Source: a phage. From it: a stretch of 64,000 bases of DNA. The notes under the pieces are model-generated. The model had not been told where the DNA came from. It made no database searches and was given only the letters and a program-made list of their open reading frames with translations. Below, piece by piece: positions 49,352 to 59,081 of the stretch (position 1 is its first letter; the number at the start of each line of letters is the position of its first letter). The stretch lies in sequence record OZ413489.1. The stretch is one strand, 5' to 3'. Both the position numbers and the translations under genes were made by a program.

Positions 49352-49732
49352 TTATGACACTTTGACGTAGCGCTCTGACAGAGCTGGAAAGCCAAAAGCA
49401 GTACCTATACTACCGTATGCTACCCACCATTGAAGTTCATCGTGACACCATTTTCCGATCAGGAAGGTGCTGGGGTAGCGGGTCAGTATTTTGGCATAAG
49501 CTTTAGGGTCTGCATCTTCTGGGATAATGATACTTGGAACATCTTTGTTATGGCCACAGCAGCAGTTTAGAGTTTTCAATCCTGCCGCCCATAGACTCAT
49601 GATAGGCTTAGCCATGCACTTATCAAGGCACACACGTTTTTTGCCGTCACGGAGCTTTTTAGGCACATCAACGATAACATTTTGATGCTTGGCACCTTTC
49701 ACTTTCCAATTATAGGATTTACACTTGCACAT
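49352..49732 (-). CDS. hypothetical Cys-rich protein
   Basis: 126 aa; GGAGA RBS; Cys clusters CKCK, CLDKC, CCCGHNK. Confidence 0.35.
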   Translation of the reverse strand: MCKCKSYNWKVKGAKHQNVIVDVPKKLRDGKKRVCLDKCMAKPIMSLWAAGLKTLNCCCGHNKDVPSIIIPEDADPKAYAKILTRYPSTFLIGKWCHDELQWWVAYGSIGTAFGFPALSERYVKVS

Positions 49733-50736: not shown

Positions 50737-51303
50737 TTATTCAAACTGCAATAGTAAGTCCACCACCGCGCTAGGTCTGTCAACAAATTCCCCAGGTCCA
50801 CATGCCCACAGAGGGTATCCGTCTACATACCGCCAAATCCAACCTGCGGTGTGGAGTTCGAGCAGGGCAGTGCCGTCCTTACTGTCAACCACTCTTTCCC
50901 ACAGTGTCGGGCAGCGAAGCTTGAGGATCGGATCCCCTCCCTTATACCCATCCATGTAGATACCCATTGCAAAGTTCAGCATCATCTTTTTGTGCACTGA
51001 TCTTTTACTGAGGGTACTCATCACTTCCTCTTTGTGAATGTTTGTAAGCTTCTCCTTGGCTACCCGCAGATCGTTGCAACCATTGTTCAGCAGATCTTCC
51101 AGACACTTGATCCGAAGGTCGTGAATGTCTTTGTCGTGTACCGTTGGCACAGGGTCGTAGCGGTATAGCACTGTTGATACAAGGTTGCTCGGGTGTGGGT
51201 CTGACAGCAACCCATAACCCCAATACTCTTCTGTATCTGAAAGGACAAGACACCCAATGTCTCTGTCAAGCTTTCCTGTGTTGTAAGCCACATTGACCGC
51301 CAT
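50737..51303 (-). CDS. hypothetical protein
   Basis: 188 aa ORF in minus-strand operon. Confidence 0.35.
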   Translation of the reverse strand: MAVNVAYNTGKLDRDIGCLVLSDTEEYWGYGLLSDPHPSNLVSTVLYRYDPVPTVHDKDIHDLRIKCLEDLLNNGCNDLRVAKEKLTNIHKEEVMSTLSKRSVHKKMMLNFAMGIYMDGYKGGDPILKLRCPTLWERVVDSKDGTALLELHTAGWIWRYVDGYPLWACGPGEFVDRPSAVVDLLLQFE

Positions 51304-51305
51304 GA

Positions 51306-51551
51306 CTATAGCTCCACTAGCAAAGTGCTTTCAAAGTGCCGTTCATGCAAACCGTTGTAAGGGACCACTTCTACAACGCCATCACGGACATATGGGGCCA
51401 TCATGGTGGTATAATCTCCAAACGGGTTGGTATTGTCACTAACCACAACCACCTTCTGCCCTTCCTTGGCAGAGTGCCAAATAGATCTGCACTTCATCAG
51501 GTGTTCGAGAGCTCCAGGTAAAATTTTGTTACGTTCTTTACGGGTCTTCAT
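51306..51551 (-). CDS. hypothetical protein
   Basis: 81 aa; overlaps neighbours by a few nt. Confidence 0.3.
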   Translation of the reverse strand: MKTRKERNKILPGALEHLMKCRSIWHSAKEGQKVVVVSDNTNPFGDYTTMMAPYVRDGVVEVVPYNGLHERHFESTLLVEL

Positions 51552-51997
51552 AACAGATATAGCTCCTTATGAAAGTGGTCTTTTAATTTCTCACTGAGAA
51601 ACTTCTTGATACCTTCCTCTAAAGTGTTTTCGATGTAGTCCAGCTTAACTGCTTCGATGGACATATCATAGATTGCCAGCTCTAAGCTGTCAAGTCCCAT
51701 CATAGCATGAACCATAAGATTTTCATCTTCAGATACATTCAGGGGACTTCCTATAACATCTGGAGGCAGAATAGTTTCCCAATTATTCTGGGTGGTAGTT
51801 CTCCCGCCATCTACTTTACGGCGCAGTTCGAATGTGTTCTTAGTGTAGAACACTTCATAAGAAACGATACGACTGTCACTCTCATAATAAACGAAGTTCA
51901 GGTAGGAGCCTAGCCGCAGTCGGCAAACTTCCACCCCAAACCATTGTTTCTTATAAGAATTCAGGCTAATGCTGTCGCATTCACGTTTGCTCAACAC
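51548..51997 (-). CDS. hypothetical protein
   Basis: 149 aa. Confidence 0.35.
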   Translation of the reverse strand: MLSKRECDSISLNSYKKQWFGVEVCRLRLGSYLNFVYYESDSRIVSYEVFYTKNTFELRRKVDGGRTTTQNNWETILPPDVIGSPLNVSEDENLMVHAMMGLDSLELAIYDMSIEAVKLDYIENTLEEGIKKFLSEKLKDHFHKELYLL

Positions 51998-52013
51998 GGC
52001 TATCTCCTTTTTG

Positions 52014-52247
52014 TTAATCTTCGTAAATCAGGATTTCTGCTTTAGGTTTTCGTGCTTTCAGATCCAGCTCTATCCAATGCACCATGGCTGTTTCAAGAAA
52101 AACAGCCTGGATGCATCCGTCCTCAGCGTGCCCTACCAACATAACAAGATCTTCACCTTCGTCATCTGCATCACGAACATACAGAATCTCTCCAGATTCA
52201 AAGTCTTTCACAACCTGATTGCTGGATAATTTACGAATTTTTGCCAT
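52014..52247 (-). CDS. small protein, paralogue family member 3
   Basis: 77 aa; KDFESGEILYV...GEDLVMLVGHAEDGCIQAVFLET aligns with 52249-52512 product. Confidence 0.4.
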   Translation of the reverse strand: MAKIRKLSSNQVVKDFESGEILYVRDADDEGEDLVMLVGHAEDGCIQAVFLETAMVHWIELDLKARKPKAEILIYED

Positions 52248-52248
52248 A

Positions 52249-52512
52249 TCAGAAACCCTCTAAAAAGCTCTTGTAGAAAACAATCTCAGTATCCACACCA
52301 GTCACAATCTTGTCGTTCCTGATTTCATCAGTAAGATAGGTGTCAAAACGCAGAACCTGTGTGGTATTGTCGCACATCCACTCAGCTGTGACCATGGCGA
52401 AAATCTTAGCATCCTCATTATCTGGTGTAAATGTTACCACCTCACCACATTTAAATTTTTCGATAGGTTGCGTGTTAGCTTTCGGTTCTGCAATAGTGAT
52501 TTTCGTGGTCAT
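52249..52512 (-). CDS. small protein, paralogue family member 2
   Basis: 87 aa; EKFKCGEVVTF...AKIFAMVTAEWMCDNTTQVLRFDT. Confidence 0.4.
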   Translation of the reverse strand: MTTKITIAEPKANTQPIEKFKCGEVVTFTPDNEDAKIFAMVTAEWMCDNTTQVLRFDTYLTDEIRNDKIVTGVDTEIVFYKSFLEGF

Positions 52513-52769
52513 TACTCTTCCTCCATAGTTTCACCAAATACTTCGATACGAGCATCGAGCTCTGTTGCTTTCAGCTCCCCAACAAAATCTTTTAGTTCTT
52601 TCTCGTCCAGATCGTAAGCCCACACACAAGAAGAACATGCAGATTTCACAATCAGCAGCGTAGATACACGGCCTGACTCTGTGATCATGCTCACAATGGT
52701 TCCCACAGGGAACGTGTTGATAGCTTTTTTAACTGGGCGTTCAGATTTGATTACTACTTCTGTTGCCAT
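52512..52769 (-). CDS. small protein, paralogue family member 1
   Basis: 85 aa; similar length and N-terminal pattern (MATEVVIKSERP / MTTKITIAEPKA). Confidence 0.4.
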   Translation of the reverse strand: MATEVVIKSERPVKKAINTFPVGTIVSMITESGRVSTLLIVKSACSSCVWAYDLDEKELKDFVGELKATELDARIEVFGETMEEE

Positions 52770-52784
52770 AAATAACGTCCTCTC

Positions 52785-54266
52785 TTACTTAGCGTACTCG
52801 ATTAATTCCACAGTTTTCCCAAAGCTCGGGATATAATTTTTATTATACCCTTCGGTGAGAACCCATAAAGTATCGTACTTTTTCCACTTGTTGTCAACAG
52901 CCTTTTGTTCAAAGTTATGCTCAAAGTATAGGTCGGTCAGGACGATGACATCTTTTGCATTTGGTATGTTGGCATCCAGATACTCGAACACGCAAGCAGC
53001 TGTTGTGCCCCATGTTGAGTGGACCTCATAGTTAATCATCTCATCGATGTTACCGCGAGTGTATACTTTAACCTCTCCAACCTCCGTTGACCAACAGAAC
53101 ATAGTAACCTTAAACTCTTTATACAAATTGCACAACCCGGTGATCTCATTGAACATTTTCTTTAAAGTTCTTTGTGAGATCGACCCAGAAACGTCTAAAG
53201 CCACTACAATATCTATAGTGTTTTCCGGATTACGACCAGGAACAATAACGTGTTGATTCTTGTTTATAGCTCCAACTTTTCGCATTGTGGTGGTCAAAGA
53301 CCCAGATCGGCGACCAGGTTTTCTGTAGGTTAACTCAGCCTTTCTTTTAGATAACATACGTTGCTTAATAATATCTATATAATTGATTACAGGCTTGCCT
53401 CTGTTTTTGACAAACTCGCGCACCGCCTCGGGGCAACGACCTCCTGAAGCTTGCATTGCTGCTTCCAACATGTCACCAGAGTCCTGCATGGCCTGATCTT
53501 TGTCAGATTGACTGATTACTGGTTGCGGCTGATCATACCCCATAGCCTTTCCAAGATCATCACTAGTGCCACCGTTCCCGCTCATGTGATCATCGGTTTG
53601 TCGTTTATCTCCTTGGGAGTTCTCACCTTTACCGTTCTTACTTTTACCGTTATTCTGATCTCTTTGCTTATCAAGAACTGCATAGACGTTCTCAGCAATC
53701 CATCCATGAAACCTCATGTCGCAGTAGCAATTAGCTAAGAAGCCAAAAGGCTTACCTTTTACGAACTCAGTGCTTTTCCCCTTCGGGAAGAAAACACAAG
53801 GAGGCTTACTAAAGTCAACCACAAGACCTGTGTTGATAACGTGATCACAAGCAATATTGAACAGTTCCGGCTCAAAGCTTTTACCACGGACCAGATGATC
53901 ACAGATAATATGCCCCACCTCATGTGACAGAAGAAAGGCCACCTCTTTCACAGATTTTGGGGAATAGAAAACCTCAGCCATCTCAAACTGCTTGTCAGTC
54001 AGAGATGCTTTAAGAATGGTTTTACGCTCATCCGCCAACCCCATAATGAACTCAGGGCTGTAGTAGATGCGTTTATGGTCGGTTGCCATGGTGGAGCACC
54101 ATGTGTGGTTTTCTACGAACTGCAACCCTGACAGTAGTGTGCCATAAAACGGCAGCTTTTCAAGGAGATACATACGTGCAGCCTGCAACATTCTCAGGGC
54201 ATCATCTTTCTGTGAGGCAATGATTTCTGAACTTCTGCTATCCATTAAAACTCCAGAAGGGGCCAT
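52785..54266 (-). CDS. VWA-domain protein with N-terminal HExxH metallopeptidase-like domain (DUF2201-like)
   Basis: 493 aa; LSHEVGHIICDH zinc-binding-like motif; Gly/Asp/Ser-rich linker; C-terminal VWA MIDAS motif IVVALDVSGS. Confidence 0.55.
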   Translation of the reverse strand: MAPSGVLMDSRSSEIIASQKDDALRMLQAARMYLLEKLPFYGTLLSGLQFVENHTWCSTMATDHKRIYYSPEFIMGLADERKTILKASLTDKQFEMAEVFYSPKSVKEVAFLLSHEVGHIICDHLVRGKSFEPELFNIACDHVINTGLVVDFSKPPCVFFPKGKSTEFVKGKPFGFLANCYCDMRFHGWIAENVYAVLDKQRDQNNGKSKNGKGENSQGDKRQTDDHMSGNGGTSDDLGKAMGYDQPQPVISQSDKDQAMQDSGDMLEAAMQASGGRCPEAVREFVKNRGKPVINYIDIIKQRMLSKRKAELTYRKPGRRSGSLTTTMRKVGAINKNQHVIVPGRNPENTIDIVVALDVSGSISQRTLKKMFNEITGLCNLYKEFKVTMFCWSTEVGEVKVYTRGNIDEMINYEVHSTWGTTAACVFEYLDANIPNAKDVIVLTDLYFEHNFEQKAVDNKWKKYDTLWVLTEGYNKNYIPSFGKTVELIEYAK

Positions 54267-54278: not shown

Positions 54279-55319
54279 TTATTTAACGTGTTTGAAAATA
54301 CCTGCCAACTCGGTCATTGTCATGCGGGTGGTCTTCATAAGATCTGTCATAGCTTTCTCCATAATTGGAGATACTACCATAAAGTTTCCTTTAGTGAAAC
54401 CTTTATTCCAGTCGGTCACCAACAGTGGTTTAAGTCCAGCTCTGAGACGTTCACCAGTTAAAGCACAGCATTTGCGAATATACGAACTCTTAAATTGGCT
54501 GAACGACAGATCAACTTTCATACCTGCATCGTAGAACGTTTGACAATAGAAAGTGTAAGCCTTAGCAATCTCAACATCATCAGGCAGTGCAGGAACCTCT
54601 TCTGCAATCCCCTCTTCGACCTCCTGAGGCTCTTTTTCCTCTTCAGAGTTCTGTTCTTCAACTTCTTCTGTCACAGTCTCGTTCACGATGTCTGAAATGT
54701 GTTTGTTGGCTGCACGATCAGCCATGAAATTTTTAAAGTCCTGCATTGGTGACATATCTTCTTCCTCTTCGTCAAATAGTGCTAGTTTATCTTCTTCTGT
54801 CCCGTATTGCAAGATGAAATCTTCAAAAGTATAATAACCTTTCAATTTCTCCATACGCTCTTCGCTCAGGTGGAGCATCATCTGCTGGACAATTTTTCGA
54901 TCAGTTTTGTCTTTAATCAGGATTGCAGTCTTTTTATCTACCAGACAGTCTTTCAGAGCATTGCACCTCAACCCTACCACACAACAATTGTCAATTGCGT
55001 AAGGACCTTCATCATCTATACGCTCCAAAGATGGGTAGAAAGGATTCCCCAGCCCGTTTTCATCTGTGTGCATGTCAAAAGGTATAAGGGTATAGTCGCA
55101 TACTCCATCTCCTAAAAGTTTTTTACCAAATAGGAGGTATTCTTCCCATGACAGGTCGAACTCTATATCTCGTTTCCGTGCGTTATTCTGTTTGCGTCTA
55201 TATTTTTTGAGCAAGCGCTCTAACTCTTCTGGTGTATAATATTTTTCAAGATTCATGAGTCGTCTCTCGTGCTCTGTAAGTGAAGAAATCGTATCAATTG
55301 TCTCAACAGATGTCAACAT
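54279..55319 (-). CDS. acidic protein with tandem His-Me-finger (HNH-like) zinc-loop modules
   Basis: Track ORF to 55322 (TTG); ATG at 55319 preferred; SLERIDDEGPYAIDNCCVVGLRCNALK resembles the HNH zinc-binding loop, with a degenerate second copy; long Glu/Asp-rich linker. Confidence 0.35.
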   Translation of the reverse strand: MLTSVETIDTISSLTEHERRLMNLEKYYTPEELERLLKKYRRKQNNARKRDIEFDLSWEEYLLFGKKLLGDGVCDYTLIPFDMHTDENGLGNPFYPSLERIDDEGPYAIDNCCVVGLRCNALKDCLVDKKTAILIKDKTDRKIVQQMMLHLSEERMEKLKGYYTFEDFILQYGTEEDKLALFDEEEEDMSPMQDFKNFMADRAANKHISDIVNETVTEEVEEQNSEEEKEPQEVEEGIAEEVPALPDDVEIAKAYTFYCQTFYDAGMKVDLSFSQFKSSYIRKCCALTGERLRAGLKPLLVTDWNKGFTKGNFMVVSPIMEKAMTDLMKTTRMTMTELAGIFKHVK

Positions 55320-55329
55320 CAAAAACGTG

Positions 55330-57627: not shown

Positions 57628-57897
57628 ATGTTATACCAGCAATATGAACTTCGTGCAGAAAAAGAGTTAAATTTTGACAAAGATATTCACAGATATTATT
57701 ATGGGAAAGTTAGAGGGCAAGCAAGAAAGTGTACTCCAACACTCTTTTATGCCAGCAGACGACTAGCGCCAGAAGAGGCAACAGCAGAAAGGGTTGCGTA
57801 CAACTGGAGAGTCACGTATGATATTGACAGATCCGATGTGATATCTGTTTTGGAAAACTTTGAAAACACTTACACACAAGTAGAGGACTTTTACTAA
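57628..57897 (+). CDS. hypothetical protein
   Basis: 89 aa; AAGGAG RBS. Confidence 0.35.
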   Translation: MLYQQYELRAEKELNFDKDIHRYYYGKVRGQARKCTPTLFYASRRLAPEEATAERVAYNWRVTYDIDRSDVISVLENFENTYTQVEDFY

Positions 57898-59081
57898 TGT
57901 CAAGAAACGTATTCGAAAGTGGTCAAATCACTGTCCGTGAGTTGCCAGCTATTATTCAGTTTGCCCAACGTCATAGCCGATCTGTCCTAATTTTGGGACC
58001 AATGGGTGTGGGTAAAAGTCAGGTGATGAAGCAGATCGCTGATAATATGTTCGGTGAGCGAGATGACAACCTTGTTGACGTGCGACTGTCAGATAAAGAT
58101 CCTGCCGACTTATCTGGGCTACCTATCCCTGTAGAGGCGGATGGAACTACACGTACAGTGTTTGCAATTCCAGAATTTTGGCCTGCGGATCCTGACTGGA
58201 GCGGAATTATCTTTCTGGATGAGCTCACTCATGCAGATAACTACCTGCAAAAGGTTGCAATGCAAATTATGCTTGACCACAAGTGCGGTACCTATGCATT
58301 CCCTAAGGGTTCTGTTTTTGTGGCTGCTGGTAACCGTTCTACAGATGGTGCGGTTCTTTCGGCGCTCGAAGCCCCTCTGGCTAACCGTTTTATCATTGTA
58401 GAGGTTACAAGCAATGCAGAGGTGTTTATTGAGGACTACGCATTCCTTAATGGGGTGCACTCCTCTGTAATTGGATATCTGAAAAGAGTTCCATCAGCTA
58501 TCGATAATTATGAGGCCATGGCTGAGATTAATTGTCCATCTTTTGCCACACCGCGATCTTGGGTTGCTGCATCTGATATCTTGCACGATTTTGACAGCGG
58601 TATTATTTCTGACGCTATGGCCCGTGTTCTTCTGCAAGGTGCTATTGGTCACACTGCAGCGGTAGAGATCTGGACATACCACACCAAGAAACGCAATTTA
58701 CCTGAAATCGGTCGGATTATGGCAGGTGGTTGCAAAGAATACGTAGGTCCTAAGCAGCCAGACATTTTGTGGATTCTTGGATCTGAAGGTTGTATCGCTA
58801 TTCGTAATATGATGGAAAATGCAAGTATCTCAGACGAAGATCTTGTCAGCTGCGTGGCAAACTTCCTCGATTTCCTTTGGGAAAACTTCAAGGACGAGAA
58901 CCGAGATTTTGTATTCTCAGTCTTTATGGCGATGATGAAACCTAATGCCTTAGGAAATGCCTTGCTTATCGGCAAAGGGCGTGACAAGATTGTTGCTCAG
59001 CTGATCAAAGCATACCCAAACCTGATGAAGATTGTAAAAGAGTTTGGTGAAGAGTTTAGCGCCATTTTGGCTAAAGCTTAA
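57897..59081 (+). CDS. AAA+ ATPase (MoxR/CobS-like, AAA_5 type)
   Basis: 394 aa; Walker A GPMGVGKS, Walker B IIFLDE, sensor-like AAGN. Confidence 0.6.
   Translation: MSRNVFESGQITVRELPAIIQFAQRHSRSVLILGPMGVGKSQVMKQIADNMFGERDDNLVDVRLSDKDPADLSGLPIPVEADGTTRTVFAIPEFWPADPDWSGIIFLDELTHADNYLQKVAMQIMLDHKCGTYAFPKGSVFVAAGNRSTDGAVLSALEAPLANRFIIVEVTSNAEVFIEDYAFLNGVHSSVIGYLKRVPSAIDNYEAMAEINCPSFATPRSWVAASDILHDFDSGIISDAMARVLLQGAIGHTAAVEIWTYHTKKRNLPEIGRIMAGGCKEYVGPKQPDILWILGSEGCIAIRNMMENASISDEDLVSCVANFLDFLWENFKDENRDFVFSVFMAMMKPNALGNALLIGKGRDKIVAQLIKAYPNLMKIVKEFGEEFSAILAKA

What the first reader, a model, noticed from the sequence alone, without database searches (positions are those of the whole stretch)
52014..52769. 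Tandem array of three paralogous small proteins (77-87 aa)
Three consecutive minus-strand genes encode related proteins (shared pattern F-x-x-G-E-hydrophobic ... D-x-E-D ... V-x-A-E ... L-R/F-F-D/E-T). Tandem paralogue arrays in phage early regions often target host factors or defences.
Basis: seen in the sequence. Interest (0 to 1): 0.45.

Follow-up and report, generated by a model that had tools for sequence, protein, structure and literature searches.

The report
Tandem small beta-barrel phage paralogues
Three neighbouring small genes of an rV5-like E. coli phage are real, very diverged copies of one ancestral gene for a ~9 kDa acidic beta-barrel protein; the phage can grow without any one of them in the laboratory and their job is still unknown.

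The parts
52512..52769 (-). pC (85 aa, pI 4.65). Orthologue of rV5 ORF14 and bas54_0054, in phrog_10698. It is the variable slot of the array.
   Evidence: The ORF is and the PHROG hit (E=4e-48). 74 of 118 Vequintavirus records carry this allele; the other 44 carry two ~41%-identical genes instead. DNA identity to Murica falls from 92-100% to 45-57% exactly across 52772-52502. dN/dS is 0.01-0.18.
52249..52512 (-). pB (87 aa, pI 4.46). Orthologue of rV5 ORF15 and bas54_0053, in phrog_12861.
   Evidence: The ORF is and the PHROG hit (E=9e-62). It is present in all 118 records at >=93% identity. A pC-type HMM scores it at 23.9 bits, E=1.2e-6, with 0/10,000 shuffles. dN/dS is about 0.01-0.03 although dS is up to >1.
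52014..52247 (-). pA (77 aa, pI 4.59). Orthologue of rV5 ORF16 and bas54_0052, in phrog_12046. It is the most diverged member.
52785..54266 (-). Upstream neighbour in the same operon: a 493-aa DUF2201_N putative metallopeptidase plus VWA-like protein (rV5 ORF12, bas54_0055). It is the conserved left border of the slot.
   Evidence: Pfam gives PF13203 at 4e-28 and PF09967 at 4e-11. It directly abuts or overlaps the gp017 homologue in Seunavirus.
51548..51997 (-). Downstream neighbour: a 149-aa protein (rV5 ORF17, bas54_0051, phrog_6790). It is the conserved right border of the slot.
   Evidence: It is 47-49% identical in the sister lineage, where it follows the single family member.
54279..55256 (-). 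First gene of the operon: an Srd-like 'anti-sigma factor' (rV5 ORF11, bas54_0056). The likely start is the ATG at 55256, not the TTG at 55322.
   Evidence: PHROG hits to Srd, sigma-70 decoy and HNH-type families are.
55288..55316 (-). Sigma-70-type promoter (rV5 'P11'): TTGACA, 17 nt, TACGAT with an upstream TG.
   Evidence: The scan is and the sequence. The same site is annotated as a promoter in the rV5 record. The rV5 paper defines genes 11-26 as one transcription unit (PMC3606486).

Best explanation
SHOWN. The three genes are diverged tandem duplicates of one ancestral gene. They encode ~9 kDa, acidic (pI 4.5-4.7), soluble single-domain proteins. The gene family is restricted to rV5-like phages and one uncultured sister lineage.
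- Seunavirus has no copy in the slot between the DUF2201/VWA gene and the gp017 homologue. The sister lineage has one copy there, and Vequintavirus has three or four.
- The first slot (pC) is exchanged as a cassette between isolates.
- Each orthologue group is under strong purifying selection, so each copy does something useful.
- None is needed for plaque growth on E. coli K-12.

INFERRED (moderate). The fold is an SH3/Tudor-like small beta barrel. The genes are co-transcribed by host RNA polymerase from the sigma-70 promoter P11, together with the Srd-like and DUF2201 genes. They are translationally coupled, so they are made early and in similar amounts.

INFERRED (weak; my committed mechanism). 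Each paralogue is a stoichiometric protein-binding module that docks onto a different host protein, either a host-takeover target or a strain-variable defence component. Duplication plus divergence, and allele swapping at the pC slot, widen or shift the set of targets. That makes this a host-range / accessory function rather than a core one.
For: - Homology: (E=1e-6 class against real ORFs, 0/10,000 shuffles, hhalign 86.7%). The single-copy sister-lineage protein P0036 is the top hit of all three sub-family HMMs.
- Restriction: only 118 Vequintavirus records in the phage collection. There are 6 hits at E<=1e-3 among 1.84e9 representatives.
- Slot history.
- Cassette replacement.
- Selection.
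- Operon.
- Dispensability: HIDEN-SEQ on Bas54 (10.1101/2025.11.20.689424) found 12/12, 13/15 and 17/17 TA sites disrupted, all three classed 'Non-essential'. The Bas54 proteins are 77/77, 86/87 and 83/85 identical to those of the window.
- Acidity.
Against: - No direct evidence of any binding partner or phenotype exists.
- On clinical isolate CFE311 the insertions are not significantly depleted: log2FC -1.32 (q=0.68), +0.33 and +0.46.
- Within each orthologue group selection is purifying, not diversifying. An ongoing arms race is visible only as allele replacement at pC.
- The fold assignment rests on a medium-confidence model of one member. The pC model is poor (pLDDT 51) and no single PDB hit is significant by Foldseek.
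- Early timing is inferred from a promoter consensus, not from expression data.
Confidence: 0.5

Rival explanations
1. The small proteins are adaptors, substrates or regulators of the neighbouring DUF2201 (metallopeptidase + VWA) protein and its MoxR ATPase partner (window 57897-59081), working with them as one counter-defence module.
For: The family sits immediately after the DUF2201 gene both here and in the sister lineage. In Bas54 the MoxR ATPase is required on CFE311 and against defence system DS-28 (log2FC -7.23). The DUF2201 gene is also depleted (-2.20, q=0.009) and the gp017 homologue trends the same way (-2.28, q=0.195).
Against: In that same experiment insertions in pB and pC have no effect, and the effect on pA is not significant. 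Seunavirus phages keep DUF2201 and gp017 with no such genes in the slot between them. The sister lineage keeps a second copy about 25 kb away in an unrelated neighbourhood.
Confidence: 0.15
2. They are transcription or RNA modulators. Either they are Tudor-like domains that dock on RNA polymerase (as the CarD, Mfd-RID and UvrD C-terminal domains do), or they are Sm/Hfq-like RNA binders. In either case they would cooperate with the Srd-like protein in shutting off or redirecting host gene expression.
Against: These matches are generic to the SH3-like fold and rank below eukaryotic Tudor and BAH domains. There are no Pfam hits to LSM, CarD_TRCF_RID or KOW. All members are acidic (net charge -1 to -9), which argues against direct nucleic-acid binding, though not against RNAP binding.
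Confidence: 0.15
3. They act against competing phages or mobile elements (superinfection exclusion or inter-phage conflict) rather than on host defences.
For: The same accessory-locus signature applies: dispensable, lineage-restricted, variable in copy number, and carrying cassette alleles.
Against: There is no specific evidence. The proteins are small, cytoplasmic and acidic, with no membrane segment. By my own recollection (not checked here), classical exclusion proteins are often membrane proteins.
Confidence: 0.1
4. The resemblance is chance or convergence among unrelated small beta-rich ORFs, so there is no paralogue family.
For: Pairwise BLASTP is non-significant. PHROGs keeps three separate families.
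Against: Profile scores exceed all of 10,000 composition-matched shuffles and give E of about 1e-6 against 724 real ORFs. The alignments are full-length and collinear. A single-copy outgroup protein bridges all three.
Confidence: 0.03

Closest known systems
PHROGs phrog_10698, phrog_12861 and phrog_12046 (all 'unknown function')
   Same: The three proteins are full-length, high-scoring members of these three families (E=4e-48, 9e-62 and 5e-55).
   Different: PHROGs treats them as three unrelated families. Here they are shown to be one superfamily that also includes the Murica gp013/gp014 alleles and the sister-lineage proteins P0033 and P0036.
SH3-like small beta barrels of the Tudor / BAH / PWWP / Sm-Hfq / KOW class (best match: Sds3 capped Tudor domain, PDB 7sxi_A)
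   Different: No sequence-level membership was found (no Pfam or PDB-sequence hit). No aromatic-cage or Sm motifs were identified. The proteins are acidic, stand-alone and phage-encoded. The model is of medium confidence only.
Variable accessory-gene loci of phages, i.e. 'accessory regions' between conserved genes that often hold counter-defence genes (as framed in bioRxiv 10.1101/2023.04.06.535777, of which only the abstract was seen, in the listing)
   Same: The block of small genes sits between two conserved genes, is absent from that slot in related genera, varies in copy number and allele between near-identical genomes, and is dispensable in the laboratory.
   Different: No counter-defence activity has been demonstrated for these genes. 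Within alleles the selection is purifying.
Bas54 (phage MaxBurger) genes bas54_0052, bas54_0053 and bas54_0054
   Same: These are near-identical orthologues (77/77, 86/87 and 83/85 residues) with direct transposon-insertion data.
   Different: That study annotates them only as hypothetical, non-essential proteins. It does not report paralogy, fold or function.

Membership tests
Tandem paralogue array (the finding's own claim) | The genes are adjacent, on the same strand and co-transcribed. | tested here: met
   Junctions are 0-1 nt apart and each gene has its own RBS. There is no minus-strand terminator between the promoter at 55316-55288 and position 49500.
Tandem paralogue array (the finding's own claim) | There is statistically significant sequence homology among all members. 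| tested here: met
   Only profiles show it. C to B gives E=1.2e-6 and B+C to A gives E=1.8e-6, each with 0/10,000 shuffles; hhalign gives 86.7%. Pairwise BLASTP fails.
Tandem paralogue array (the finding's own claim) | The members are real protein-coding genes rather than chance ORFs. | tested here: met
   dN/dS is 0.01-0.24 across 3-7 genomes per gene. pA and pB are conserved in all 118 Vequintavirus records, and the pC slot is always occupied, by pC in 74 and by two ~41%-identical genes in 44.
Tudor / SH3-like small beta-barrel fold | A five-stranded, strongly bent antiparallel beta barrel of about 60 residues. | tested here: inconclusive
Tudor / SH3-like small beta-barrel fold | Sequence-profile membership in Pfam Tudor, KOW, SH3, PWWP or similar. 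| tested here: not met
   No Pfam family reaches significance for any of 12 members. The profile against PDB sequences gives a best E of 0.39, and 1.2 for Spt5 KOW.
Tudor / SH3-like small beta-barrel fold | An aromatic cage that binds methyl-lysine or methyl-arginine. | not tested
   Model coordinates were not inspected. The alignment shows no conserved aromatic cluster beyond the near-invariant F20 (pC numbering).
Hfq / Sm-like RNA chaperones | Sm1/Sm2 sequence motifs and basic RNA-binding surfaces; a ring oligomer. | tested here: not met
   There is no LSM Pfam hit. All members are acidic, pI 4.2-5.7. Oligomeric state cannot be tested here.
RNAP-interacting bacterial Tudor-like domains (CarD / Mfd-RID / UvrD C-terminal domain) | Sequence membership in CarD_TRCF_RID or a UvrD C-terminal profile. 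| tested here: not met
RNAP-interacting bacterial Tudor-like domains (CarD / Mfd-RID / UvrD C-terminal domain) | Binding to the RNA polymerase beta-subunit lobe. | not testable with these tools
   This needs pull-down or co-folding experiments.
Phage counter-defence (anti-defence) proteins | The gene is required for infection only when a given defence system is present, or it neutralises that system when expressed. | tested here: inconclusive
   The published Bas54 transposon data show no significant depletion on isolate CFE311 (q=0.68, 1.0 and 1.0). Only single insertions and one extra host are available, and paralogue redundancy is untested. No library of anti-defence families was available. 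PADLOC, which covers defence systems, gave no hit.

The most novel reading that the evidence does not exclude
The array is a diversifying set of SH3/Tudor-like 'binder' proteins. Each would neutralise a different strain-variable host immunity component, or an RNAP / host-takeover target. The pC slot would act as a swappable specificity cassette exchanged between phage lineages. One observation points that way: pC is 63% identical to the sister lineage's dispersed copy (P0033) but only 31% identical to its syntenic copy (P0036). If true, this would be a new structural class of phage counter-defence or host-takeover protein with a built-in allele-exchange mechanism.
Probability: 0.2. Interest if true: 0.6.

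Novelty: new member of a known kind. Interest (0 to 1): 0.3.

Why it matters
rV5-like phages are widely isolated and used in E. coli O157 biocontrol and therapy cocktails, yet most of their early genes are unannotated. This work merges three 'orphan' PHROGs into one beta-barrel family with a traceable duplication history of 0, 1, 3 and 4 copies and a cassette-like variable slot. That gives a concrete, small target for host-range and counter-defence experiments: delete the whole array, and swap alleles. It also explains why single-gene transposon screens may miss its function, because the paralogues may be redundant. It does not reveal a new kind of biological system.

Tried and rejected
1. Pairwise BLASTP among the three proteins gave nothing significant. 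First-pass hhalign with shallow profiles was only marginal for pA (P=0.013 and 0.025).
2. The word-indexed homologue searches returned only relatives sharing >80% identity over the aligned part, some of them truncated fragments, so they did not deepen the profiles.
3. A column-shuffle hhalign null timed out. I replaced it with hmmsearch against shuffled sequences.
4. The Pfam, PDB-sequence and PADLOC scans gave no significant hit.
5. The pC AlphaFold model, built with the B+C alignment, was too poor to use for fold search (pLDDT 51).
6. Foldseek against the PDB gave no significant single hit. The afdb50 library was unavailable.
7. I asked whether the PVP-SE1 85-aa gp217, which lies between the Srd-like and DUF2201 genes, is a family member. 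No HMM signal was found (E>2), and it belongs to a different PHROG. Rejected.
8. No other family member was found among the ORFs of >=40 aa in the 64-kb window.
9. There is no DNA-level direct repeat within the array, so the duplications are old.
10. I first read contig L011 (P0033) as evidence of transfer into a Krischvirus-like phage, because of an 84%-identical 240-nt segment. I withdrew this when the same gene was found on 139-141 kb sister-lineage contigs that also carry the canonical slot.
12. The HIDEN-SEQ 'CFE303' sheet, as stored, duplicates the CFE311 output. Only one extra host could therefore be read.

Full report
1. IDENTITY OF THE WINDOW AND THE GENES

The region is 97.6% identical to rV5-like Escherichia myophages of the genus Vequintavirus.
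- pA, 52014-52247, 77 aa
- pB, 52249-52512, 87 aa
- pC, 52512-52769, 85 aa

They correspond to rV5 ORF16, ORF15 and ORF14 and to bas54_0052, bas54_0053 and bas54_0054 of phage MaxBurger/Bas54. The Bas54 proteins are 77/77, 86/87 and 83/85 identical to those of the window. Each gene has a Shine-Dalgarno-like sequence. The stop and start codons overlap or are 1 nt apart: TAATG, then TGATATG.

2. IS THE PARALOGY REAL?

Pairwise BLASTP says no: no alignment at E<=100 for A/B and B/C, and E=0.53 for A/C. PHROGs files the proteins in three different families of unknown function (phrog_12046, phrog_12861 and phrog_10698). The only hint there is a full-length E=0.078 hit of pB to pC's PHROG.

The word-indexed database search returned only relatives sharing >80% identity over the aligned part. 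The way forward came from tblastn. In 44 of 118 Vequintavirus genomes the pC position holds two tandem genes (Murica gp013 and gp014). These are 41-42% identical to pC and 37% identical to each other. With these alleles the signal emerged in steps:
- The pC-type HMM picked pB as its best non-family hit among 724 ORFs of the window and six loci (E=1.5e-4).
- A B+C HMM scored pA at 13.3 bits, with 0/5000 shuffles as high.
- An exhaustive HMM scan of 1.84 billion representatives added three more divergent alleles, P0033, P0034 and P0036. A profile holding no pA sequence then scored pA at 23.3 bits (E=1.8e-6 against real ORFs; 0/10,000 shuffles, null maximum 11.7).
- hhalign gave 86.7% probability (P=4.4e-6) over a collinear 69-column alignment.
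- The pC-type-only profile scored pB at 23.9 bits (E=1.2e-6) and pA at 14.8 bits (E=8.5e-4).
- The next-best window ORF scored E=0.46.

In the family alignment G is invariant and F nearly invariant within F-x-x-G-[T/E]-[I/V]-[V/L]. An I near the C-terminus is also invariant.

3. REAL GENES UNDER CONSTRAINT

pA and pB are present in all 118 Vequintavirus records. The pC slot is occupied in all of them, by pC or by the two-gene alternative. Nei-Gojobori estimates among three to seven genomes per gene give dN/dS of 0.01-0.11 for pA and pB. For pB, for example, there are 34.5 synonymous against 4.5 non-synonymous differences. The pC-type alleles give 0.01-0.24. The antisense ORF 51969-52229 is not supported by this codon-position pattern.

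4. FOLD

AlphaFold2 with pA's own shallow alignment gave a medium-confidence all-beta model (pLDDT 69.5, pTM 0.58, seven strands). pC modelled with a B+C alignment was poor (pLDDT 51), although its first five strands fall roughly where the sequence alignment would place them relative to pA.

In BFVD, rank 1 is the pA orthologue. Rank 4 (E=0.078) is an 84-aa protein of Vequintavirus Pr121LW. Its length matches Pr121lw_144, the 94%-identical pC orthologue. I could not verify that accession mapping.

I conclude that an SH3/Tudor-like small beta barrel is likely. There is no evidence for membership in any specific Tudor, Sm or KOW sequence family. All members are acidic (pI 4.2-5.7, net charge -1 to -9) and lack hydrophobic segments.

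5. DISTRIBUTION AND HISTORY

In the phage collection all three proteins occur only in the 118 Vequintavirus records, even at E<=1. The exhaustive scan found just 6 representatives at E<=1e-3.

The flanking genes are much more widespread. They are the DUF2201_N/VWA gene (493 aa; Pfam) and the gp017 homologue (149 aa). The slot between them varies by lineage:
- In the Seunavirus phages PVP-SE1 and EC152 the two flanking genes overlap directly, with nothing between them.
- In an uncultured sister lineage the slot holds one family member, the P0036 type. This lineage comprises contigs of 118-141 kb, with DUF2201 61-62%, Srd-like 64-66% and gp017 47-49% identical to the window. P0036 is the best hit of the A, B and C sub-family HMMs alike.
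- At least two contigs of that lineage also carry a dispersed second copy, the P0033 type, about 25 kb away.

The simplest history is a single ancestral gene in this slot, followed by tandem duplication to three in Vequintavirus, and a further change at the first position.

P0033 is 63% identical to pC, whereas the syntenic P0036 is only 31% identical. This hints at exchange between loci or lineages.

At the DNA level, identity between the window and Murica is 92-100% on both sides and drops to 45-57% exactly over the pC ORF (52772-52502). Murica has about 260 extra nucleotides there. This is a sharply bounded cassette replacement. No DNA repeats remain within the array.

6. EXPRESSION CONTEXT

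A consensus sigma-70 promoter (TTGACA, 17 nt, TACGAT, with an upstream TG) lies at 55316-55288. It is followed by an RBS and the ATG at 55256 of the Srd-like gene. The same site is annotated as promoter P11 in the rV5 record. [quoted passage not shown] No minus-strand terminator-like site was detected from there down to position 49500. Early, host-RNAP-dependent co-transcription with the Srd-like and DUF2201 genes is thus a reasonable inference, but it has not been measured.

7. EXPERIMENTAL DATA FROM THE LITERATURE

The HIDEN-SEQ preprint (10.1101/2025.11.20.689424) built a saturated transposon library of Bas54. bas54_0052, bas54_0053 and bas54_0054 had 12/12, 13/15 and 17/17 TA sites disrupted, and all three are classed 'Non-essential' on E. 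coli K-12.

In the competitive comparison of BW25113 against clinical isolate CFE311 their log2 fold changes are -1.32 (q=0.68), +0.33 and +0.46 (q=1.0 for both). None is significant. The sheet labelled CFE303, as stored, is a duplicate of the CFE311 output. Single insertions cannot exclude redundancy among paralogues.

8. MECHANISM

Shown:
- This is a lineage-restricted family of tandemly duplicated genes for small acidic proteins.
- Each copy is under purifying selection and is individually dispensable in the laboratory.
- The first slot is a swappable cassette.

Inferred:
- The fold is an SH3/Tudor-like barrel, and the genes are expressed early.

My committed but weakly supported mechanism is that the proteins are stoichiometric binders of host proteins, either takeover targets or strain-variable defence components, with the paralogues covering different targets. 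The rivals are:
- adaptors of the DUF2201/MoxR module, which fits the position but not the CFE311 data, the lack of these genes in the Seunavirus slot, or the dispersed copy;
- RNAP- or RNA-directed modulators working with the Srd-like protein, which rests on fold-generic matches only, and the acidity argues against nucleic-acid binding;
- inter-phage competition;
- chance similarity, which is statistically rejected.

9. NOVELTY AND VERDICT

The genes are annotated as hypothetical proteins in about 100 genomes. In the sources I read their paralogy is not noted: the rV5 paper has no occurrence of 'paralog', PHROGs splits them into three families, and the HIDEN-SEQ passages I read list them only as hypothetical, non-essential proteins. 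Unifying them, assigning a probable fold and tracing the changes in copy number is new detail. The kind of object, a small accessory-gene family in a variable phage locus, is familiar. Interest is 0.3.

Noticed in passing
window 52785-54266 (-), 57897-59081 (+) and 51548-51997 (-): The DUF2201/VWA gene next to the array has a MoxR-type ATPase about 3.6 kb away on the other strand. In Bas54 the MoxR gene (bas54_0063) is required on isolate CFE311 and against defence system DS-28 (log2FC -7.23). In the same supplementary table the DUF2201 gene is also significantly depleted (-2.20, q=0.009) and the gp017 homologue trends the same way (-2.28, q=0.195). In the passages of the preprint that I read, only the MoxR gene and bas54_0140 are highlighted. 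In Cronobacter phage CR9 an 'ATPase' gene sits immediately upstream of the DUF2201 gene. A MoxR + VWA/metallopeptidase (+ gp017?) counter-defence module seems likely.
   Followed up: partly
window 54633-54743 (-), inside the Srd-like gene: A short internal segment of the Srd-like gene is hypervariable between the window and Murica (58-68% identity with indels, against 92-100% around it). It falls in the acidic E/D-rich middle of the protein.
   Followed up: no
window 54279-55322 (-): The mechanical ORF call starts at the TTG at 55322, but the sigma-70 promoter P11 (55316-55288) lies inside that extension. The real start is most likely the ATG at 55256, as annotated in Murica and Bas54.
   Followed up: yes
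GenBank records MG0656xx (for example MG065658.1 and MG065661.1): Sixteen records named 'Campylobacter phage' with host Campylobacter jejuni are about 97% identical to E. coli rV5-like phages across this locus. Mislabelling or contamination looks likely.
   Followed up: no
window 52785-54266 and 51548-51997; RefSeq records NC_011041, NC_041871 and NC_022323: RefSeq and PHROG labels call the DUF2201/VWA protein 'HNH endonuclease' and the 149-aa gp017 homologue 'tail protein'. Pfam shows only DUF2201_N plus a VWA-like domain for the former and nothing for the latter. Both are non-essential in Bas54. The labels look like propagated misannotation.
   Followed up: partly
L008 119-1258; L008 4938-5531 and 5574-6128 (also L017-L020): The sister-lineage contig carries a TnpB-like gene (OrfB_IS605 / Cas12f1-like_TNB) just upstream of the Srd-like gene. 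It also has two tandem homologues of rV5 gp019 (27-30% identical to window 50737-51303). Tandem duplication therefore recurs in this operon.
   Followed up: no
window 51306-51551 (-): The 81-aa gp018 homologue hits two PHROGs: phrog_4868 at E=6e-33 and phrog_12865 at E=1.6e-7. It may be another small-protein family split across PHROGs.
   Followed up: no
L011 2070-2307: A segment of about 240 nt near the dispersed P0033 copy is 84% identical to Krischvirus (RB49-like, T4-type) phages. This suggests a gene shared between unrelated myophage lineages.
   Followed up: no
bioRxiv 10.1101/2025.11.20.689424, Extended Data Table 8: In the stored text of the supplement, both resampling sheets (listed in the table's description as Data S6, K-12 vs CFE303, and Data S7, K-12 vs CFE311) have headers naming the CFE311 sample and carry identical values in the rows compared. 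The CFE303 result for Bas54 therefore could not be read.
   Followed up: yes
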